Below, in pieces: positions 2,544-29,617 of a stretch of 35,439 nt of DNA (position 1 is the first letter of the stretch; the number at the start of each line of letters is the position of its first letter). The position numbers and the translations under genes are program-made. The notes below the pieces were generated by a model. That model did not search any database and was not told where the DNA came from. It worked only from the letters and a program-made list of their open reading frames with translations. The stretch lies in the UHGV virus genome UHGV-0327679; one strand, written 5' to 3'. Source of the DNA: a virus.

Positions 2544-2798
2544 ATGGCTAGAGATGATCCGCACTTTAACTTCCGCATGCCTTTGGAAGTAAGAGAAAAA
2601 TTAAAATACAGAGCAGAGTCAAATGGTAGATCAATGAACTCAGAATTGTTGCAAATCGTCCAAGATGCTCTATCGAGACCATCTCCTGTAAAAGGTTATC
2701 GCAATGAAGCTGAACGATTAGCCGAGATGCAGGCTGAACAGTTCAAGTCTGTGGTATTTGAGACACTTAAAAACATGTATGGCAAGGATGCAAAATGA
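2544..2798 (+). CDS. mnt: Mnt repressor (maintenance of lysogeny, ribbon-helix-helix)
   Basis: MARDDPHFNFRMPLEVREKLKYRAESNGRSMNSELLQIVQDAL matches P22 Mnt. Confidence 0.9.
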   Translation: MARDDPHFNFRMPLEVREKLKYRAESNGRSMNSELLQIVQDALSRPSPVKGYRNEAERLAEMQAEQFKSVVFETLKNMYGKDAK

Positions 2799-3376
2799 TC
2801 GATTACAACCCAGCAAAAAAAGAAATCATCGCAGCTAAAAAGTGCCTAGAGCAGATGAAATCATCTACAAACCATGATGATTTTGAAATGCACTGGCGAG
2901 AATGTCTTGGGCATATAGAAAAGTCTTTCAGTAAGTTGCTCTGTGCAACAAAGCCGGTTAGTGGAAAATTTAGCAGCCACTTCAACCAAAAGTTCATGCT
3001 TAGAAAAACAGACAAAACACTTGCTTACCTTCACCAAGCAAGAAATGCTGATCATCATTCCACTATGGAAATCTCAAAACTTGAACCTCCTTATACTACT
3101 CTTGGGGCATTTCCTGGAGCAAGAAGCCATTATATTAAAGAGTTAATCATTGATTCAACAGGGAAAATAGCAAAATACGAAGGCGACCCTATGGTAGTTG
3201 AGTTTCATCCAGCAACAACTATGCCTATAACCGTAAGAAACCAAGGCAAAGATTATCCACCTCCAACAGAACATCTTGGCGAAAAGCTTGTTGATATACA
3301 TCCATCTGTTCTTGCCCATCTCGGTATACAATTTTATGAAAAATGGATAGATGAGTCGTGTGCAACGTTTAGATAG
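2795..3376 (+). CDS. Hypothetical 193-aa soluble protein, translationally coupled to mnt (cargo gene)
   Basis: ATGA overlap with the mnt stop; AAGGA Shine-Dalgarno; AT-rich; no motif I can recognise. Confidence 0.6.
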   Translation: MIDYNPAKKEIIAAKKCLEQMKSSTNHDDFEMHWRECLGHIEKSFSKLLCATKPVSGKFSSHFNQKFMLRKTDKTLAYLHQARNADHHSTMEISKLEPPYTTLGAFPGARSHYIKELIIDSTGKIAKYEGDPMVVEFHPATTMPITVRNQGKDYPPPTEHLGEKLVDIHPSVLAHLGIQFYEKWIDESCATFR

Positions 3377-24864: not shown

Positions 24865-26241
24865 TCATACGTCAGCCCCTTGTGCATATCGTCTGCCACG
24901 CGCAGCAGGTGCATTTGATGCTGTGCAAATCTGTCTGGCTTCATCCTGGTCACATGCAACAAAGTGTCCGTTGCAGAACCGCTGGTAAACCGTACCAAGT
25001 GAGCCAAAACGGTTTTTCGTCACAATGATTTCAGCAAATGGCGCGGCGCTACTGTTCTCGTCATATACAGCTTCCCGATAGAGCATGATGATTGAGTCTG
25101 CGTCCTGTTCAATGCTTCCTGAATCACGCAAATCTGCGTTTGTCGGGCGTTTGTTTGGTCGCTTCTCAACATCGCGCGAAAGCTGACTCAGGGAGATAAC
25201 AGGCGTTTTCAGGTCTTTCGCCATCGCCTTCAGGCTTCCGGAGATGTGAGCAATTGCGAGGTCGTTGCGATCTGCTTTCGGCTTCTCAATCAGGCCAAGA
25301 TAATCCACCATGATGAGTGACAGGTTTGGATTTTCCTGTTTGTGCCGTTCTGCGATTGAGCGTATTTCTTCGACCGATAACCGCGAGGCATCGACTACCC
25401 ATACATCCAAATCTGCAAGCTGACTCATGCCGTTAGCAACGCGCGCCCAGCCTTCGTCATCCATCGATGCAGGATTTCGCAGCACACTAACCGACATCCT
25501 CCCGGCGTTGGCAATACTTCGCTCTGCAATCTGCAATGCGCTCATTTCCATTGAGAAAATCAACACTCCGCGCCGGACGTCAGAACCAGGAATAACGCGG
25601 CTTGCAACGCCTTCGGCAATCTTCAGCGCCAGTTCGGTTTTACCCATACCGGGACGAGCGGCGATAATCACCAGGTCTTCTGCGTTCATCCCTCCGGTGA
25701 TGGCGTCAAGTTCGTCGATTCCGGTCTTCAGGGTATCTGACTCTTCTCCGTTCCTCAGACGCCTGTCAAGCGTGTCAGTGTAGTCAGTGATGATTTCCCC
25801 TAACCGTACCGGTTTAACCTCGTCACGGGGCTTTCTGATGGCTGAAAGACGCTTTACAAGTTCATCCATCGCCTGACTCGATGCGTCGATGGTTCCGCTC
25901 TGAATTGGTTCACGCATTTCATCCATGATTTCCAGCACCAGACGGCGGTGATAGTTATCCGCGACCATTCCGGCATATCCCTTCAGGTTTGCGGCACTCG
26001 GGCAGTTTTTGCTGGTCATCAGGATTGACGTGAAATGCTCCTCTCCGCACGCCTCGGCAACCATCAGCGCGTCGATTAAATTTCTGTTTCGCGCCTGCTT
26101 GCGGATAACCTCGAAGGCTTTCCGGTAGAGCGGAATTGAAAACGCTTCCGGCTCCAGCGTTGCCAGAACGTCGCTGGCGGTTGGAGTTAATCCACCAATC
26201 AGCAGGCCACCGATAACGCTCGCTTCGATATCCTGTCTCAT
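24865..26241 (-). CDS. Replicative DNA helicase (DnaB-like, P22 gene 12 type)
   Basis: 458 aa; Walker A GMGKT; DnaB C-terminal domain motifs. Confidence 0.85.
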
Positions 26242-27185
26242 GCAATCCCCCTGTCTGCAAACTTCCCTTCCCGTACTCCCGTTAACGAATCTTCCCTCAA
26301 CAGGTAATCAAAATCAGCCGTCCAGCCCGTGTCGTTGTCTCCGAAGTAAAACGGCTTGGCCTGATGCACAAACGCCCTGACATACGCTCTGAAACCGTCC
26401 ACGTTTGGCGTTTTCAGTTGCGGGATGATTTTCTTCAGGCGGCGTTTGCGTTTCTCGTTGACTGCAACAGCATGTGGAAGTCTGTCACCGACTTCGGTGT
26501 TGTAGGCGTTCAGGAAGGATTCGTAGTCGATTCGTTCTGCCTTGCGACGTTCAGGTTTAACCTGCCCATCGCCGCCCCCATTGGGGGGTAGGGGGGTATT
26601 ATTTATATTCTTGTTAATACCTTCTTGTTCATGATGTGCGGTTGTTTGTGCGGCTTCATGTGCGCTTTCATGTGCGGAATGTGCGCTGAAAGCTGCGCCA
26701 TTACTGGCTTCGTCATGTGCGGCATCATGTGCGGTTGTTTGTGCGGCATCATGTGCGGGTAAATTGTCCATTTTTTGAGCATATTCATGGTAATTTGTGA
26801 TGGTGATCACACGACCTTTTTGCTTCTCTCCATCAATGGAGATCATCCCTTCTTTCACAAAAACCTGAAGCATCCGCTCAACCTGATCACGGCTTGCTGG
26901 CTTGCCATGTCTGTCGCATAACTGAAGACCTAAATCAGCTGCTGTCACAACCAGTTGACCGGGTTGCAGATGCCATTCATGACCTTTGAAATTCGCTTTG
27001 TATGGCTTTCTGGCGGCATTCAGGAGAAGGTTTTCCCACAGGGTGCGAAGATAAACATCTTTCGCCCATGACTGTTTCAGAATGCTCCGGTACAACGGAA
27101 TGTAACCAGTTTTCTGGTTCTCCATCCTGTTGCTCCTGCGCTCGTGTGCGGCGCTGAAATCGTAGATTTTTGCTGTATTGCTCAT
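26238..27185 (-). CDS. O: Replication initiator O-like protein
   Basis: N-terminus [10 protein letters not shown] resembles lambda O (MTNTAKILNF); His/Ala repeat linker encoded by the iterons. Confidence 0.8.
26629..26759. repeat. Probable origin iterons: about 8 tandem copies of a roughly 12-bp unit (tcATGTGCGGc) inside the O gene
   Basis: Repeated CATGTGCGG read directly; adjacent G-rich then AT-rich stretch 26575-26625; same arrangement as ori-lambda within O. Confidence 0.6.
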
Positions 27186-27187
27186 AA

Positions 27188-27460
27188 CTACCTGCCTTGA
27201 CGAAAGACCTTAAGAACATCGTTAAACTGACTTACGGATATGTCTTCTTTGAGAAGCTTTTCCAGAAATGCGTTTGGAATGAACGTATATCCCTCCTCTT
27301 TTGGTAGAGACGGGAGCAACGCCATCGCCTCAGCCTTCAGAAGCTCAGTTCTGGCAACTTTCACAAAAGAGATTTGAGTTCTTTCATCAATGGAACGAAG
27401 GAAGCGCAAACGCTTAGCTTCTTTGTGTGTATCAGGTGGATTAAAGCCTTTGTTTCGCAT
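27188..27460 (-). CDS. Hypothetical 90-aa protein inserted between cII and O
   Basis: ATG 27460 with GAGG Shine-Dalgarno; lambda has no gene at this junction. Confidence 0.5.
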   Translation of the reverse strand: MRNKGFNPPDTHKEAKRLRFLRSIDERTQISFVKVARTELLKAEAMALLPSLPKEEGYTFIPNAFLEKLLKEDISVSQFNDVLKVFRQGR

Positions 27461-27535
27461 ATAATTACCTCGTTGGATGTTGTTAAAATTCCATTTGTAT
27501 TTGATCAGAACGCTCGGTTGCCGCCGGGCGTTTTT
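27460..27535 (+). ncRNA. oop: oop-like antisense RNA with its terminator
   Basis: 3' portion TTCAGAACGCTCGGTTGCCGCCGGGCGTTTTTTATT matches lambda oop and its terminator; 5' end uncertain. Confidence 0.5.
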
Positions 27536-27776
27536 TATTGGTGAGAATCGAAGCAACTTGTCGTGCCAATCGAGCCATGTCGTCGTCAACGACGCCCCAT
27601 TCAAGAACAGCAAGCAGCATTGAGAACTTTGGAATCCAGTCCCTCTTCCACCTGCTGATCTGCGACTTATCAACTCCCACAGCTTCCGCTGTCTTCTCAG
27701 TTCCAAGCATTGCGATTTTGTTAAGCAACGCACTCTCGATTCTTAGAGCCTCGTTGCGTTTGTTTGCACGAACCAT
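27483..27776 (-). CDS. cII: Transcriptional activator CII
   Basis: MVRANKRNEALRIESALLNKIAMLGTEKTAEAVGVDKSQISRWKRDWIPKF, near-identical to lambda CII; lambda-type Shine-Dalgarno TAAGGAAATACTTACAT. Confidence 0.9.
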   Translation of the reverse strand: MVRANKRNEALRIESALLNKIAMLGTEKTAEAVGVDKSQISRWKRDWIPKFSMLLAVLEWGVVDDDMARLARQVASILTNKKRPAATERSDQIQMEF

Positions 27777-27855
27777 ATGTAAGTATTTCCTTAGATAACA
27801 ATTGATTGAATGTATGCAAATAAATGCATACACCATAGGTGTGGTTTAATTTGAT

Positions 27856-27887
27856 GCCCTTTTTCAGGGCTGTGATGTGTAAGAGCG
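27856..27887 (-). promoter_or_regulatory. nutR (boxA CGCTCTTAC, boxB GCCCTGAAAAAGGGC)
   Basis: Minus strand reads CGCTCTTACACATCACAGCCCTGAAAAAGGGC, matching lambda nutR. Confidence 0.8.
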
Positions 27888-27895
27888 AGAATGTC

Positions 27896-28111
27896 TTAAG
27901 CGGCTTTGTGTTCCGGCGGGAACACGTCATCAAGACTGACTTTTGCGCCTAACTTGTTTAGGCACTCAACAAGAGCACGGCATGTTTTAAGGTCTGGGAA
28001 GCGACGACCAGATTCCCAATGTCCGATAGCTCCCTGTGTGCATCCAACTGCCTTAGCAAGTGTTGTTTGAGAGATATTCAGTGACTCTCGATATTTTCGT
28101 AGGTTGCTCAT
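27896..28111 (-). CDS. cro: Cro-like HTH repressor (not lambda Cro)
   Basis: 71 aa MSNLRKYRESLNISQTTLAKAVGCTQGAIGHWESGRRFPDL; GGAGG upstream; divergent from cI. Confidence 0.75.
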   Translation of the reverse strand: MSNLRKYRESLNISQTTLAKAVGCTQGAIGHWESGRRFPDLKTCRALVECLNKLGAKVSLDDVFPPEHKAA

Positions 28112-28223
28112 ATGCCCTCCATAGTAACCATGAAACAATAATACGATATGTACTTTTAGAATGCAAACAAAAAAATACATCTTGTGCATGGATGGTTTTA
28201 GTACAGAGCGTAATAATAATGGT
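28112..28223. promoter_or_regulatory. OR region with divergent PR/PRM; candidate operators at 28140-28154 and 28200-28214
   Basis: Related palindromes AATACGATATGTACT and AGTACAGAGCGTAAT; a third copy, AGTACAAATCGTACT, sits in PL. Confidence 0.45.
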
Positions 28224-28883
28224 ATGAAAATGAAATGGTATGAACTGGCTAGATCCAGAATGAAAGAGCTCGGCATAACTCAAGAGAGGTTAGCTGAAGA
28301 GCTTGGTATGACGCAGGGTGGAATTGGTCACTGGTTGCGCGGATCTCGTCATCCATCTCTTGACGAGATTGGTGTGGTGTTTAAATACCTTGGTATTGAT
28401 AACGTCTCATTCAACCACGACGGTACATTTTCACCTGTTGGCGAATACTCTCTGCCCCCGTTAAAAAAACAATATGAGTACCCTGTTTTTTCTCATGTTC
28501 AGGCCGGGATGTTCTCGCCTGAGCTTAGAACCTTTACCAAAGGTGATGCGGAGAGATGGGTCAGCACAACCAAAAAAGCCAGTGATTGTGCGTTCTGGCT
28601 TGAAGTTGAAGGTAATTCCATGACCGCGCCAACAGGATCCAAGCCAAGCTTTCCTGACGGGATGTTAATTCTCGTTGACCCTGAGCAGGCTGTTGAGCCA
28701 GGTGATTTCTGCATAGCCAGACTTGGTGGTGACGAGTTTACCTTCAAGAAACTGATCAGGGATAGCGGTCAGGTGTTCCTACAGCCACTAAACCCGCAAT
28801 ATCCAATGATTCCATGCAATGATAGCTGTTCCGTAGTAGGGAAAGTTATCGCCAGCCAGTGGCCTGAAGAGACATTTAGTTAA
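28224..28883 (+). CDS. cI: CI repressor, hybrid: novel N-terminal HTH domain fused to a lambda-type C-terminal LexA-like (S24) domain
   Basis: C-terminal [37 protein letters not shown]...[25 protein letters not shown] matches lambda CI; N-terminal [26 protein letters not shown] resembles the cro HTH; start 28224 or 28230. Confidence 0.8.
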
Positions 28884-28914
28884 CAGCCTCACAACTCTAA
28901 AATACACAACAATA

Positions 28915-28943
28915 ACCCGACCTTAGCGTCGGGTTTTCTTTTT
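28915..28943 (+). terminator. Terminator downstream of cI (no rexAB present)
   Basis: Stem CCCGAC/GTCGGG with a 6-nt loop, followed by TTTTCTTTTT. Confidence 0.6.
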
Positions 28944-29008
28944 CCAAAATATAAACCCATTAAATACAAAGCGTTATAAAAAACTAATTATATTTAGAAC
29001 ATTTTGTA

Positions 29009-29037
29009 TTGACTCAATAAAGTACAAATCGTACTAT
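29009..29037 (+). promoter_or_regulatory. PL promoter (-35 TTGACT, -10 TACTAT) with overlapping operator
   Basis: 17-nt spacer; palindrome AGTACAAATCGTACT at 29021-29035. Confidence 0.55.
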
Positions 29038-29077
29038 TTAGCCATCAGCAGGACGCACTAACCACCATGAAGGTGAG

Positions 29078-29106
29078 GCTCTTAAAAATTAAGCCCTGAA
29101 GAAGGG
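29078..29106 (+). promoter_or_regulatory. nutL (boxA GCTCTTAAA, boxB GCCCTGAAGAAGGGC)
   Basis: GGCTCTTAAAAATTAAGCCCTGAAGAAGGGC matches lambda nutL. Confidence 0.8.
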
Positions 29107-29290
29107 CGGCATTCAAAGCAGAAAGCTTTGGGGTGTGGTGAAGCTCAACGGCGAGCTAGGGAATAGTTTTGCGGTGAAGATTCTAGACAACTAACCGCAG
29201 GATGCGCGTAACCCAATCGGCAGCGCACCGATGGAAGCTGGTTCGACTCCAGCCACCACACCACCAAAGCTAACTGACAGGAGAATCCAG

Positions 29291-29617
29291 ATGGATGCAC
29301 AAACACGCCGCCGCGAACGTCGCGCAGAGAAACAGGCTCAATGGAAAGCAGCAAATCCCCTGTTGGTTGGGGTAAACGCAAAACCAGTTAACCGCCCTAT
29401 TCTCTCGCTGAATCGCAAACCGAAATCACGAGTAGAAAGCGCACTGAATCCGATAGACCTTACGGTGCTGGCTGAATACCACGAACAGATTGAAAGCAAC
29501 CTGCAACGTATTGAGCGCAAGAATCAGCGCACATGGTACAGCAAGCCACGCAGTGAAATGGGTGTGACTTGTGTTGGTCGCCAGAAAATGAAATTAGGCA
29601 GCAAACCACTTATTTGA
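29291..29617 (+). CDS. N: Antiterminator N
   Basis: MDAQTRRRERRAEKQAQWKAANPLLVGVNAKPVNRPILSLNRKPKSRVESALNPIDL, near-identical to lambda N. Confidence 0.9.
   Translation: MDAQTRRRERRAEKQAQWKAANPLLVGVNAKPVNRPILSLNRKPKSRVESALNPIDLTVLAEYHEQIESNLQRIERKNQRTWYSKPRSEMGVTCVGRQKMKLGSKPLI

What the first reader, a model, noticed from the sequence alone, without database searches (positions are those of the whole stretch)
27188..27460. Extra 90-aa gene inserted between cII and O
In lambda, O follows cII within about 30 nt and the oop promoter sits at that junction. Here a 273-bp ORF with its own Shine-Dalgarno fills the gap while the flanking cII/oop terminator sequence is lambda-like. As an early PR-operon gene of unknown family it could modulate replication, the lysis-lysogeny decision or host defence, and it displaces the oop 5' region.
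Basis: partly seen in the sequence, partly recalled or inferred. Interest (0 to 1): 0.45.

Follow-up and report, generated by a model that had tools for sequence, protein, structure and literature searches.

The report
Small conserved gene between cII and O
The 90-codon reading frame is a real, selection-maintained phage gene of unknown function, and it sits in a variable slot between cII/oop and the replication initiator that is already described for lambda-like phages, so it is a modest curiosity rather than a new kind of system.

Summary
The window is a CUS-3-like (P22-like) prophage, with its early-right operon on the minus strand. The ORF at 27188-27460 (-) exists as described: ATG start, GAGGT Shine-Dalgarno, 90 aa, 22 nt after a lambda-identical cII. 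Its stop lies 2 nt before the O-like initiator gene.

It is a genuine gene. It matches PHROG 2519 (unknown function). Length and stop are kept down to about 41% identity, and dN/dS is 0.05-0.19 with synonymous sites near saturation. About 5% of complete E. coli genomes carry it, labelled "hypothetical protein". CUS-3's own GenBank record leaves it unannotated.

Published work already describes a cII-oop-"orf"-O-P layout in lambdoid phages, with lambda as the exception. P22 orf48 (DUF2740) and epsilon34 gp49 fill the same slot. ORF90 is a further family there, flanked by two highly conserved DNA linkers. It reassorts independently of cII type, O DNA-binding domain and helicase/loader type.

Residues 55-88 resemble residues 26-59 of lambda-type O; the rest of that domain is absent. 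The oop 5' end is not displaced. An invariant TATAAT overlaps the ORF's start codon, as in lambda and P22.

Function is unknown. My best guess, at low confidence, is a non-essential accessory of replication initiation made together with O.

The parts
27188..27460 (-). ORF90: 90-aa protein gene (10.5 kDa, pI 9.8; basic N-half, acidic C-half), member of PHROG 2519
   Evidence: coordinates; phrog_2519, E 1.7e-56; dN/dS 0.05-0.19, pI; AF2 model: 4 helices plus a short beta hairpin, pLDDT 80-84
27467..27471 (-). Shine-Dalgarno GAGGT of ORF90, 7 nt before the ATG
   Evidence: sequence; AGGT is invariant in the 6-locus alignment
27383..27439 (-). Codons 8-26 (motif HK..KR.RFL.S): weak similarity to the same positions of P22 orf48 / DUF2740
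   Evidence: hhalign P 0.012-0.014; 3 of 200 column shuffles reach the score. Suggestive only.
27197..27298 (-). Codons 55-88: segment resembling the first strand and two helices of the Phage_rep_O domain (lambda O residues 26-59); the remaining ~55 model positions of that domain are absent
   Evidence: hhalign score 25.3, P 9e-4, 0 of 200 shuffles, max 19.1; PF04492 below threshold in 16 of 19 members, always model positions 5/6 to 35-39; TIGR01610, E 0.011; phrog_678
27460..27465 (+). Predicted -10 (TATAAT) of a pO-like promoter, overlapping the complement of the ORF90 start codon
   Evidence: sequence; invariant in 10 ORF90 loci and equivalent to CATAAT at the lambda O, P22 orf48 and epsilon34 gp49 starts; the P22 record annotates the oop promoter at that place
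27437..27442 (+). Weak -35 candidate TGGATT (3 of 6), 17-nt spacer, inside ORF90 codons 7-8 on the opposite strand
   Evidence: Not flagged by the consensus scan, which requires 4 of 6 in each hexamer. Prediction only.
27472..27537 (+). Predicted oop-like antisense RNA of about 65 nt: short 5' hairpin plus the lambda-identical terminator. Overlaps the last 55 nt of cII.
   Evidence: searches (terminator stem 27507-27534; fold -21 kcal/mol, z -3.1) compared with lambda oop; (identity to lambda). Ends are inferred by analogy; no Rfam model matched.
27483..27776 (-). cII, 97 aa, lambda-type
   Evidence: PF05269, E 5e-48; ~97% DNA identity to lambda cII
27191..27198 (-). Shine-Dalgarno-like AAGGCAGG for O, lying inside the last codons (Q-G-R) of ORF90; the ORF90 stop is 2 nt before the O ATG
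   Evidence: CGTCAAGGCAGGTAG-NN-ATG conserved in 8 closer loci; 4-nt stop/start overlap in the two most distant loci
27132..27192 (.). Highly conserved DNA linker: end of ORF90 plus the first ~20 codons of O. Homologous to the lambda stretch that holds the pO -35/spacer, but with a spoilt -10 (CATAAC).
   Evidence: 0.89-0.94 pairwise identity, against ~0.5 in the cII and O bodies; (no unusual RNA fold, z -0.09)
26238..27185 (-). O-like replication initiator, 315 aa, with iteron-like repeats (presumed ori) at 26628-26770
   Evidence: PF04492, E 3e-15; phrog_345; repeats; domain mosaic

Best explanation
ORF90 is a real early gene of the pR operon. It occupies the known variable "orf" slot between cII/oop and the O-like initiator gene of lambdoid phages.

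Shown here:
- It encodes a small helical protein under strong purifying selection.
- It has its own ribosome-binding site. Its last codons carry the ribosome-binding site of O and its stop lies 2 nt before the O start, or overlaps it by 4 nt in distant relatives.
- Its start codon overlaps, on the other strand, an invariant consensus -10 placed like lambda pO.
- It lies between two strongly conserved DNA linkers and reassorts independently of cII type, O DNA-binding domain and helicase/loader type.
- Its C-terminal third resembles the first strand and two helices of a lambda-type O N-terminal domain and lacks the rest of that domain.

Inferred:
- The gene arose partly from the 5' part of an O-type gene left at a module junction, perhaps fused to an orf48-like gene.
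- It is now kept as a dispensable accessory of replication initiation, made in step with O. It would act on O-type initiators or on whatever that O segment contacts, rather than binding iterons itself.

I put the identity and anatomy at about 0.9 and the functional guess at about 0.3.
For: Gene reality: phrog_2519 E 1.7e-56; dN/dS 0.05-0.19 with pS 0.41-0.85; same end point down to 41% identity, and 86-93 aa length down to ~50%; 279 of 5426 complete E. coli genomes; more than 1000 contigs.

Slot: cII-ORF-O synteny in 14 further loci. The literature describes the cII-oop-orf-O-P layout and lambda as lacking the orf (PMC3349717). P22 annotation. epsilon34 and ENT1.

Coupling to O: a 2-nt gap or 4-nt overlap in every locus, with O's Shine-Dalgarno inside the last codons.

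pO-like -10: invariant TATAAT. In lambda the pO -10 lies 2 bp from the first O codon (PMC3985674).

Linkers and reassortment: (identity peaks of 0.8-0.9 and 0.89-0.94 flanking the ORF). (window against Stx2a phage: cII 42%, ORF90 99%; L004 against L005: ORF90 86%, rep 46%). (found with a lambda-P loader) against (found with a DnaB-type helicase).

O-like segment: hhalign against lambda-type O, score 25.3, P 9e-4, 0 of 200 shuffles. PF04492 hit in 16 of 19 members at the same model positions, best E 5e-5.

Dispensability: O proteins with 74-86% identical N-domains occur without ORF90.

Against: The O-like similarity covers only 34 residues and stays below Pfam's cut-off (14.6 bits against 28.7). 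It is not seen against the neighbouring O subfamily (hhalign P 0.42).

ORF90 does not co-vary with its partner O, which argues against a specific ORF90-O interface.

Physical adjacency to O and translational coupling could reflect operon packing alone. Unrelated genes, including KilAC antirepressors, occupy the same slot in other phages.
Confidence: 0.4

Rival explanations
1. ORF90 is an autonomous accessory (moron-like) gene that happens to sit in a recombination-friendly slot. Its product acts on the host or on competing phages (host takeover, anti-defence, exclusion) and has nothing to do with O.
For: It reassorts independently of cII, of the O N-domain and of the loader type. The slot holds unrelated genes in other phages, including KilAC antirepressor-like proteins. 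It is flanked by conserved linkers typical of mosaic joints. The same O type works without it.
Against: No hit to known defence or anti-defence models (PADLOC best E 0.021, short and partial). Every locus shows tight stop/start juxtaposition with O. It contains an O-like segment. It is transcribed from pR, so it would be silent in a lysogen unless it has a promoter I did not find.
Confidence: 0.25
2. The region matters mainly for the lysis-lysogeny switch. It carries the pO promoter and the 5' end of oop, and the protein, if it acts at all, modulates cII or oop.
For: The invariant TATAAT overlaps the start codon and the oop terminator is lambda-identical. In lambda, pO/oop affects cII and replication (PMC3985674; PMC3349717). 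The gene immediately follows cII with a fixed spacer of 20-23 nt.
Against: Purifying selection covers all 90 codons, and the half furthest from pO is generally the more constrained. ORF90 pairs with cII proteins that are only 37-42% identical to each other. The -35 candidate is weak and is confounded by coding constraint.
Confidence: 0.1
3. It is a leftover of an earlier O gene's 5' end, or just a translated leader. It would be kept open only because translation through it delivers ribosomes to the O start, and the amino-acid sequence would not matter.
For: Residues 55-88 resemble the lambda-type O N-terminus. O's ribosome-binding site lies inside the last codons, and the invariant C-terminal RQGR could be explained at the DNA level.
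Against: dN/dS is 0.05-0.19 with synonymous sites near saturation. There are 41 invariant residues among 12 sequences, spread over the whole length. Homologues of ~50% identity or more keep 86-93 aa, and the shorter ones keep the same C-terminal end. AlphaFold gives a consistent compact fold (all five models pLDDT 79-84).
Confidence: 0.07
4. It is not a gene: a chance open frame.
For: CUS-3's GenBank record does not annotate it. Other unconserved ORFs of similar length occur nearby.
Against: All the comparative evidence above.
Confidence: 0.01

Closest known systems
P22 orf48 (Pfam DUF2740 / PF10872; phrog_1913) and its homologues such as HK620 hkaW
   Same: Same slot: immediately after c1/cII and oop, with the oop promoter over its start codon. 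It abuts or overlaps the start of the initiator gene (18/O). It is small, basic and of unknown function. Its residues 9-27 align weakly with ORF90 residues 8-26 (HK..R.RFL.S; hhalign P 0.012, 3 of 200 shuffles).
   Different: 48 aa against 90 aa. ORF90 gives no Pfam DUF2740 hit even at E up to 1. orf48 has no O-like C-terminal segment. PHROGs files the two in different families.
epsilon34 gp49 / ENT1 small ORF (53 aa, phrog_1331); Hayes et al. list a 162-nt gene (named both gp53 and p43) in this slot of HK97, not compared here
   Same: Same slot, the same GAGGTAATTATG junction with the pO -10 on the other strand, and overlap with the O start.
   Different: No sequence similarity (hhalign probability 0.2%).
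Lambda O N-terminal (origin-binding) domain, Pfam Phage_rep_O PF04492 / TIGR01610
   Same: ORF90 residues 55-88 align with lambda-type O residues 26-59 and with model positions 6-39: the G[YF]xxIPN strand followed by two helices.
   Different: Only about a third of the domain is present, and the remaining ~55 model positions are absent. The score is below the curated cut-off. There is no iteron-binding C-terminal part and no helicase-recruiting domain. ORF90 is not an initiator.
Lambda pO promoter / oop antisense RNA
   Same: The terminator is identical to lambda. The -10 overlaps the start codon of the gene that follows cII. The RNA overlaps the last 55 nt of cII and is predicted to form two hairpins.
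   Different: The predicted RNA is shorter (about 65 nt against 77 nt), with a shortened 5' hairpin. The -35 lies in ORF90 rather than in O and is weak. Transcription has not been shown.

Membership tests
PHROG 2519 (unknown function) | Full-length match to the family profile | tested here: met
   E 1.7e-56, residues 1-90 against profile positions 1-90 of 90. Each half matches separately.
[quoted passage not shown] 2012) | Small ORF on the pR strand between the oop terminator/cII end and the O-like initiator gene | tested here: met
   synteny in 14 further loci; literature.
Lambdoid "orf" slot | oop promoter -10 overlapping the RBS/start codon of the gene that follows cII | tested here: met
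   The sequence shows an invariant TATAAT at 27460-27465, matching CATAAT in lambda, P22 and epsilon34. Promoter activity itself cannot be tested with these tools.
Phage_rep_O (PF04492) / phage_O_Nterm (TIGR01610) | Score at or above the curated cut-off over the ~95-position domain | tested here: not met
   14.6 bits against a cut-off of 28.7, and only positions 6-39 matched. TIGR01610 gave 16.2 bits against 45.5 for homologue P0009.
Phage_rep_O (PF04492) | Local homology to the start of the domain | tested here: met
   hhalign against lambda-type O: score 25.3, P 9e-4, 0 of 200 column shuffles. 16 of 19 members hit the same model positions, best E 5e-5. Not seen against the neighbouring O subfamily.
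DUF2740 (PF10872, P22 orf48) | Match to the Pfam model | tested here: not met
   No PF10872 hit at E up to 1 for any of the 19 members.
DUF2740 (PF10872, P22 orf48) | Profile-profile similarity | tested here: inconclusive
   hhalign P 0.012-0.014, probability 3-10%, and 3 of 200 shuffles reach the score. The aligned positions are congruent (8-26 against 9-27).
PHROG 1331 (epsilon34 gp49 / ENT1 small ORF) | Sequence similarity | tested here: not met
   hhalign probability 0.2%.
Known anti-phage defence proteins (PADLOC) | Match to a defence-system model | tested here: not met
   Only a JetB fragment at E 0.021 for one member and nothing for two others.
Protein-coding gene under selection | Excess of synonymous over non-synonymous change; conserved length and frame | tested here: met
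   (dN/dS 0.05-0.19).

The most novel reading that the evidence does not exclude
ORF90 is an exapted piece of a replication initiator. The first strand and two helices of a lambda-type O domain are fused to an orf48-like basic hairpin. The product would act as a small anti-initiator or decoy that binds O-type proteins or their partner and tunes O-some assembly. Because the segment looks like lambda-type O rather than the phage's own O, it might instead sabotage the replication of co-infecting lambda-type phages.
Probability: 0.1. Interest if true: 0.6.

Novelty: new member of a known kind. Interest (0 to 1): 0.28.

Why it matters
If the functional guess holds, this would be a phage-encoded small modulator of an O-type initiator, built from a fragment of an initiator. 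It would be a tidy example of a module-junction remnant becoming a gene. It is also carried by Stx2a-converting phages, where replication efficiency is thought to affect toxin output (PMC8044961).

Three smaller practical points follow:
- CUS-3's reference annotation misses a conserved gene and mis-starts cII.
- The slot between oop and O holds at least three unrelated small-gene families, all of unknown function, plus larger regulator-like genes in some phages. These can be tested in cultivable phages such as P22, CUS-3, Kapi1 and HF4s.
- The ORF is bracketed by two of the most conserved DNA stretches of the early region, which makes it a clear example of a mini-module bounded by recombination linkers.

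Tried and rejected
- **PDB sequence-profile search.** No hits at E up to 10.
- **Exhaustive profile search of 1.8 billion representatives.** Only 15 hits. None was a long Rep protein with ORF90 as its N-terminus, so the idea that it is the N-terminus of a split or longer initiator is rejected.
- **hhalign against the neighbouring O subfamily.** Not significant.
- **Link to the DnaB-type helicase / P22 gp18-type O C-domain.** This looked promising but was refuted by loci where ORF90 sits with a lambda-P loader.
- **"ORF90 tracks O, not cII."** Refuted by L004 against L005. It can separate from either neighbour.
- **Programmed frameshift fusing ORF90 to O.** No slippery site before the stop, by inspection of the sequence.
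- **Structured RNA element in the conserved O 5' linker.** z -0.09.
- **Rfam.** No oop or other family in 26000-29500.
- **Species-representative genomes.** Only 2 loci found; the alignment of distant members was too variable to scan with.
- **Literature.** No paper on this family. DUF2740 returned zero papers.

Full report
**Where we are.** The window is a CUS-3-like member of the P22-like phages. A 461-nt query across the finding is 99.8% identical to Enterobacteria phage CUS-3 (CP000711, Lederbergvirus). The early-right operon runs on the minus strand:
- cI, within the + strand ORF 28161-28883
- cro, about 27896-28113
- cII, 27483-27776
- the ORF in question, 27188-27460
- an O-like initiator, 26238-27185
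- a DnaB-type helicase, 24865-26241

**Observation.** The ORF is exactly as described. It has an ATG at 27460 and a GAGGT Shine-Dalgarno 7 nt upstream. It is 90 codons long with a TAG stop at 27190-27188. cII is about 97% identical in DNA to lambda cII, and the homology stops at the cII stop codon. The oop terminator is lambda-identical. Relative to lambda, where O starts 32 nt after cII, about 275 bp are extra. Length alone proves nothing, because unconserved ORFs of 80-86 aa lie in other frames nearby.

**Is it a gene? Yes.**
- It matches PHROG 2519 (unknown function) end to end, E 1.7e-56.
- The family is small and confined to Enterobacteriaceae prophages. It comprises 34 clusters at 90% identity, 15 representatives among 1.8 billion proteins and 2 species-representative genomes.
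- It is common within E. coli. 279 of 5426 complete genomes carry a copy at least 95% identical, annotated "hypothetical protein", and it is seen on more than 1000 contigs.
- Homologues down to ~50% identity are 86-93 aa. Shorter ones (52-72 aa, 41-54% identity) lack N-terminal residues. All end at the same place.
- Between lineages, synonymous sites are at or near saturation (pS 0.41-0.85) while pN is 0.06-0.20, giving dN/dS of 0.05-0.19.
- AlphaFold gives a consistent compact model: helices 10-23, 26-51, 63-71 and 76-87 plus a short hairpin at 53-59, with all five models at pLDDT 79-84 (first model).
- The protein is basic overall (pI 9.8), with a basic N-half and an acidic C-half.
- CUS-3's own GenBank record leaves the ORF unannotated.

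**What the slot is.** The arrangement is not peculiar to this phage. Hayes et al. [quoted passage not shown] The occupants I found are:

| Phage | What sits between cII/oop and O |
|---|---|
| lambda | nothing |
| P22 | orf48 (48 aa; Pfam DUF2740, phrog_1913); the record annotates the oop promoter over its start |
| epsilon34 and Enterobacter phage ENT1 | unrelated 53-aa gene (phrog_1331) that overlaps the O start |
| Klebsiella phage 2b LV-2017 | 265-aa regulator-like gene |
| Yersinia phage vB_YenM_210.17 | 59-aa ORF plus a KilAC antirepressor-like gene |
| CUS-3-like phages (this window) | ORF90 (phrog_2519) |

The Klebsiella and Yersinia O proteins have N-domains 74-86% identical to this window's O. 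ORF90 is therefore not required by this type of O, and it is a further family in a known slot.

**Anatomy of the two junctions.**

Upstream junction:
- The antisense strand reads TTTCGCATATAATT in all ten ORF90 loci I examined, including those whose protein is only about 50% identical.
- This places a perfect TATAAT (27460-27465, +) over the complement of the start codon.
- Lambda, P22 and epsilon34 have CATAAT at the same place. In lambda the pO -10 is known to lie 2 bp from the first O codon (PMC3985674).
- A weak -35 (TGGATT, 17-nt spacer) lies in codons 7-8. It cannot be separated from coding constraint.
- The predicted transcript runs from about 27472 to 27537, roughly 65 nt. It keeps a short 5' hairpin and the lambda terminator (against lambda) and overlaps the last 55 nt of cII, as in lambda.
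- So the oop 5' end is not displaced. It sits where it does in P22.

Downstream junction:
- The ORF's last codons (CGT CAA GGC AGG TAG) contain the Shine-Dalgarno for O.
- The O ATG follows after 2 nt in the eight closer loci. In the two most distant loci the stop and start overlap by 4 nt.
- In several contigs, gene callers started O at an internal Met, but the upstream in-frame ATG and the MSNTAK(V/I)YDF leader are conserved.

**Mosaic behaviour.** I computed sliding-window identity among five lineages.

| Region | Window coordinates | Pairwise identity |
|---|---|---|
| cII 3' end / oop terminator (peak) | 27491-27536 | 0.71-0.89 |
| ORF90 body | between the two peaks | about 0.7 |
| End of ORF90 plus first ~20 O codons (peak) | 27132-27192 | 0.82-0.94 |
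| cII and O bodies | | about 0.5 |

ORF90 can part from either neighbour:
- Against an Stx2a phage, cII is 42% identical but ORF90 is 99% and O is 97%.
- Between two other lineages (L004 and L005), ORF90 is 86% identical and cII 83%, but O is only 46%.
- It occurs with a DnaB-type helicase, with the same helicase carrying an intein-like insert, and with a lambda-P-type loader.

I had briefly thought it tracked the P22 gp18-type O C-domain and its helicase. refutes that. ORF90 is a separately exchangeable mini-module. Its only constant neighbours are a cII/oop end on one side and the start of an O-type gene on the other.

**Relationships of the protein.**
- No Pfam, NCBIfam or PADLOC model reaches threshold.
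- The PDB sequence search found nothing, and the fold searches gave only generic helical matches.
- Residues 55-88 (EGYTFIPNAFLEKLLKEDISVSQFNDVLKVFRQ) repeatedly hit the first ~35 positions of the O N-terminal domain:
  - PF04492 in 16 of 19 family members, always at model positions 5/6 to 35-39, best E 5e-5
  - TIGR01610, E 0.011
  - phrog_678, E 0.002-0.009
- A profile-profile comparison with lambda-type O N-termini aligns residues 55-88 with O residues 26-59. The score is 25.3 (P 9e-4) and none of 200 column-shuffled controls reaches it (maximum 19.1).
- Against the phage's own, more divergent O subfamily the similarity is not significant.
- The rest of the domain, about 55 model positions, is absent. 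By analogy with winged-helix initiators I take that part to hold the DNA-recognition elements, so ORF90 probably cannot bind iterons as O does. It is not a member of Phage_rep_O.
- The N-terminal motif HK..KR.RFL.S aligns at the same offset with the P22 orf48/DUF2740 motif HKNILRDRFLSS. Support is weak (P 0.012; 3 of 200 shuffles; no Pfam hit).
- No long Rep protein has ORF90 as its N-terminus.

**How it most likely works.**

Shown:
- The gene is made from the pR operon position directly after cII.
- It has its own ribosome-binding site.
- Its stop is juxtaposed to the O start, with O's ribosome-binding site inside its last codons. I infer translational coupling from this.
- Its 5' end doubles as the pO-like -10 on the other strand.

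Inferred:
- The gene arose at a module junction from the 5' part of a lambda-type O gene, perhaps fused to an orf48-like gene.
- It has been kept as a dispensable accessory of replication initiation that acts through protein contacts rather than by binding DNA as O does.

I hold this at roughly 0.3. The identity and anatomy statements are near-certain. The main rival is an autonomous accessory gene unrelated to O (0.25). It is favoured by the free reassortment and by the unrelated occupants of the slot in other phages. The universal stop/start juxtaposition with O and the O-like segment count against it. Roles centred on cII/oop (0.1) or a mere translated leader or remnant (0.07) fit poorly with protein-level selection across all 90 codons.

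**Novelty and interest.** The gene is catalogued (PHROG 2519; "hypothetical protein" in hundreds of genomes) and the slot is described in the literature. I found no paper on this family. The new points are modest:
- a further family for the oop-O slot
- its partial O-like make-up
- the two conserved linkers that bracket it
- the invariant -10 over its start codon

A specialist would not be surprised. I score interest at 0.28 and class it as a new member of a known kind.

Noticed in passing
window 27132-27192 (both strands): This is the most conserved DNA of the whole cro-to-O region: 0.89-0.94 pairwise identity among five lineages whose synonymous sites are otherwise at or near saturation. It covers the end of ORF90 and the first ~20 codons of O. 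It is homologous to the lambda stretch that carries the pO -35/spacer, but its -10 is spoilt (CATAAC here, CATCGC elsewhere). It has no unusual RNA fold (z -0.09). It could be a recombination linker or a cis element; this is unexplained.
   Followed up: partly
L001 (CUS-3 record CP000711), locus 2698-3375: The reference CUS-3 annotation leaves the 90-aa gene unannotated. It also gives cII 126 aa by starting 29 codons upstream of the lambda-identical 97-aa start.
   Followed up: yes
window 26628-26677 and 26709-26770: Two clusters of iteron-like repeats with 12-nt spacing (YCATGTGCGG) lie inside the O gene and are presumably the replication origin. They are translated as the odd [15 protein letters not shown]... 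stretch of O.
   Followed up: partly
window 26238-27185 (O gene): O is a domain mosaic. Its N-domain is 74-86% identical to the O proteins of Klebsiella and Yersinia phages that have a lambda-type C-terminus and a P loader. Its C-terminal 110 aa are 61% identical to the C-terminus of P22 gp18, the partner of the DnaB-type helicase gp12.
   Followed up: partly
L002 3805-5446 (Stx2a-type phage TL-2011a): The DnaB-type helicase of the Stx2a phages is the same protein as in this window (96% identical over the first 200 aa). It is interrupted right after the Walker A GMGK by a long, intein-like insert and is annotated only as a hypothetical protein of about 800 aa.
   Followed up: partly
window 27323-27325 (codon 46 of ORF90): The window's copy has Met at position 46, where 16 of the 17 other family members that cover this position have Arg (R in all 11 others of the closer set). 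This exact variant is seen on 54 contigs, so it is a circulating allele and not a sequencing error.
   Followed up: partly
L019 1052-1957; L015 227-1878: Related prophages carry different cargo between N and cI: a BstA_C-domain defence-like gene in L019, and a DUF3037 gene plus a gene with a faint HipA_2 hit in L015. This is another variable slot in the same neighbourhood.
   Followed up: no
L020 1216-1497 and L021 3501-3779: The most distant ORF90 relatives (about 50% identity, 92-93 aa) overlap the rep start by 4 nt instead of leaving a 2-nt gap. They end in ...FDPR(G/R)... rather than FRQGR. This fits the idea that the C-terminal tail is shaped by the rep ribosome-binding site.
   Followed up: partly
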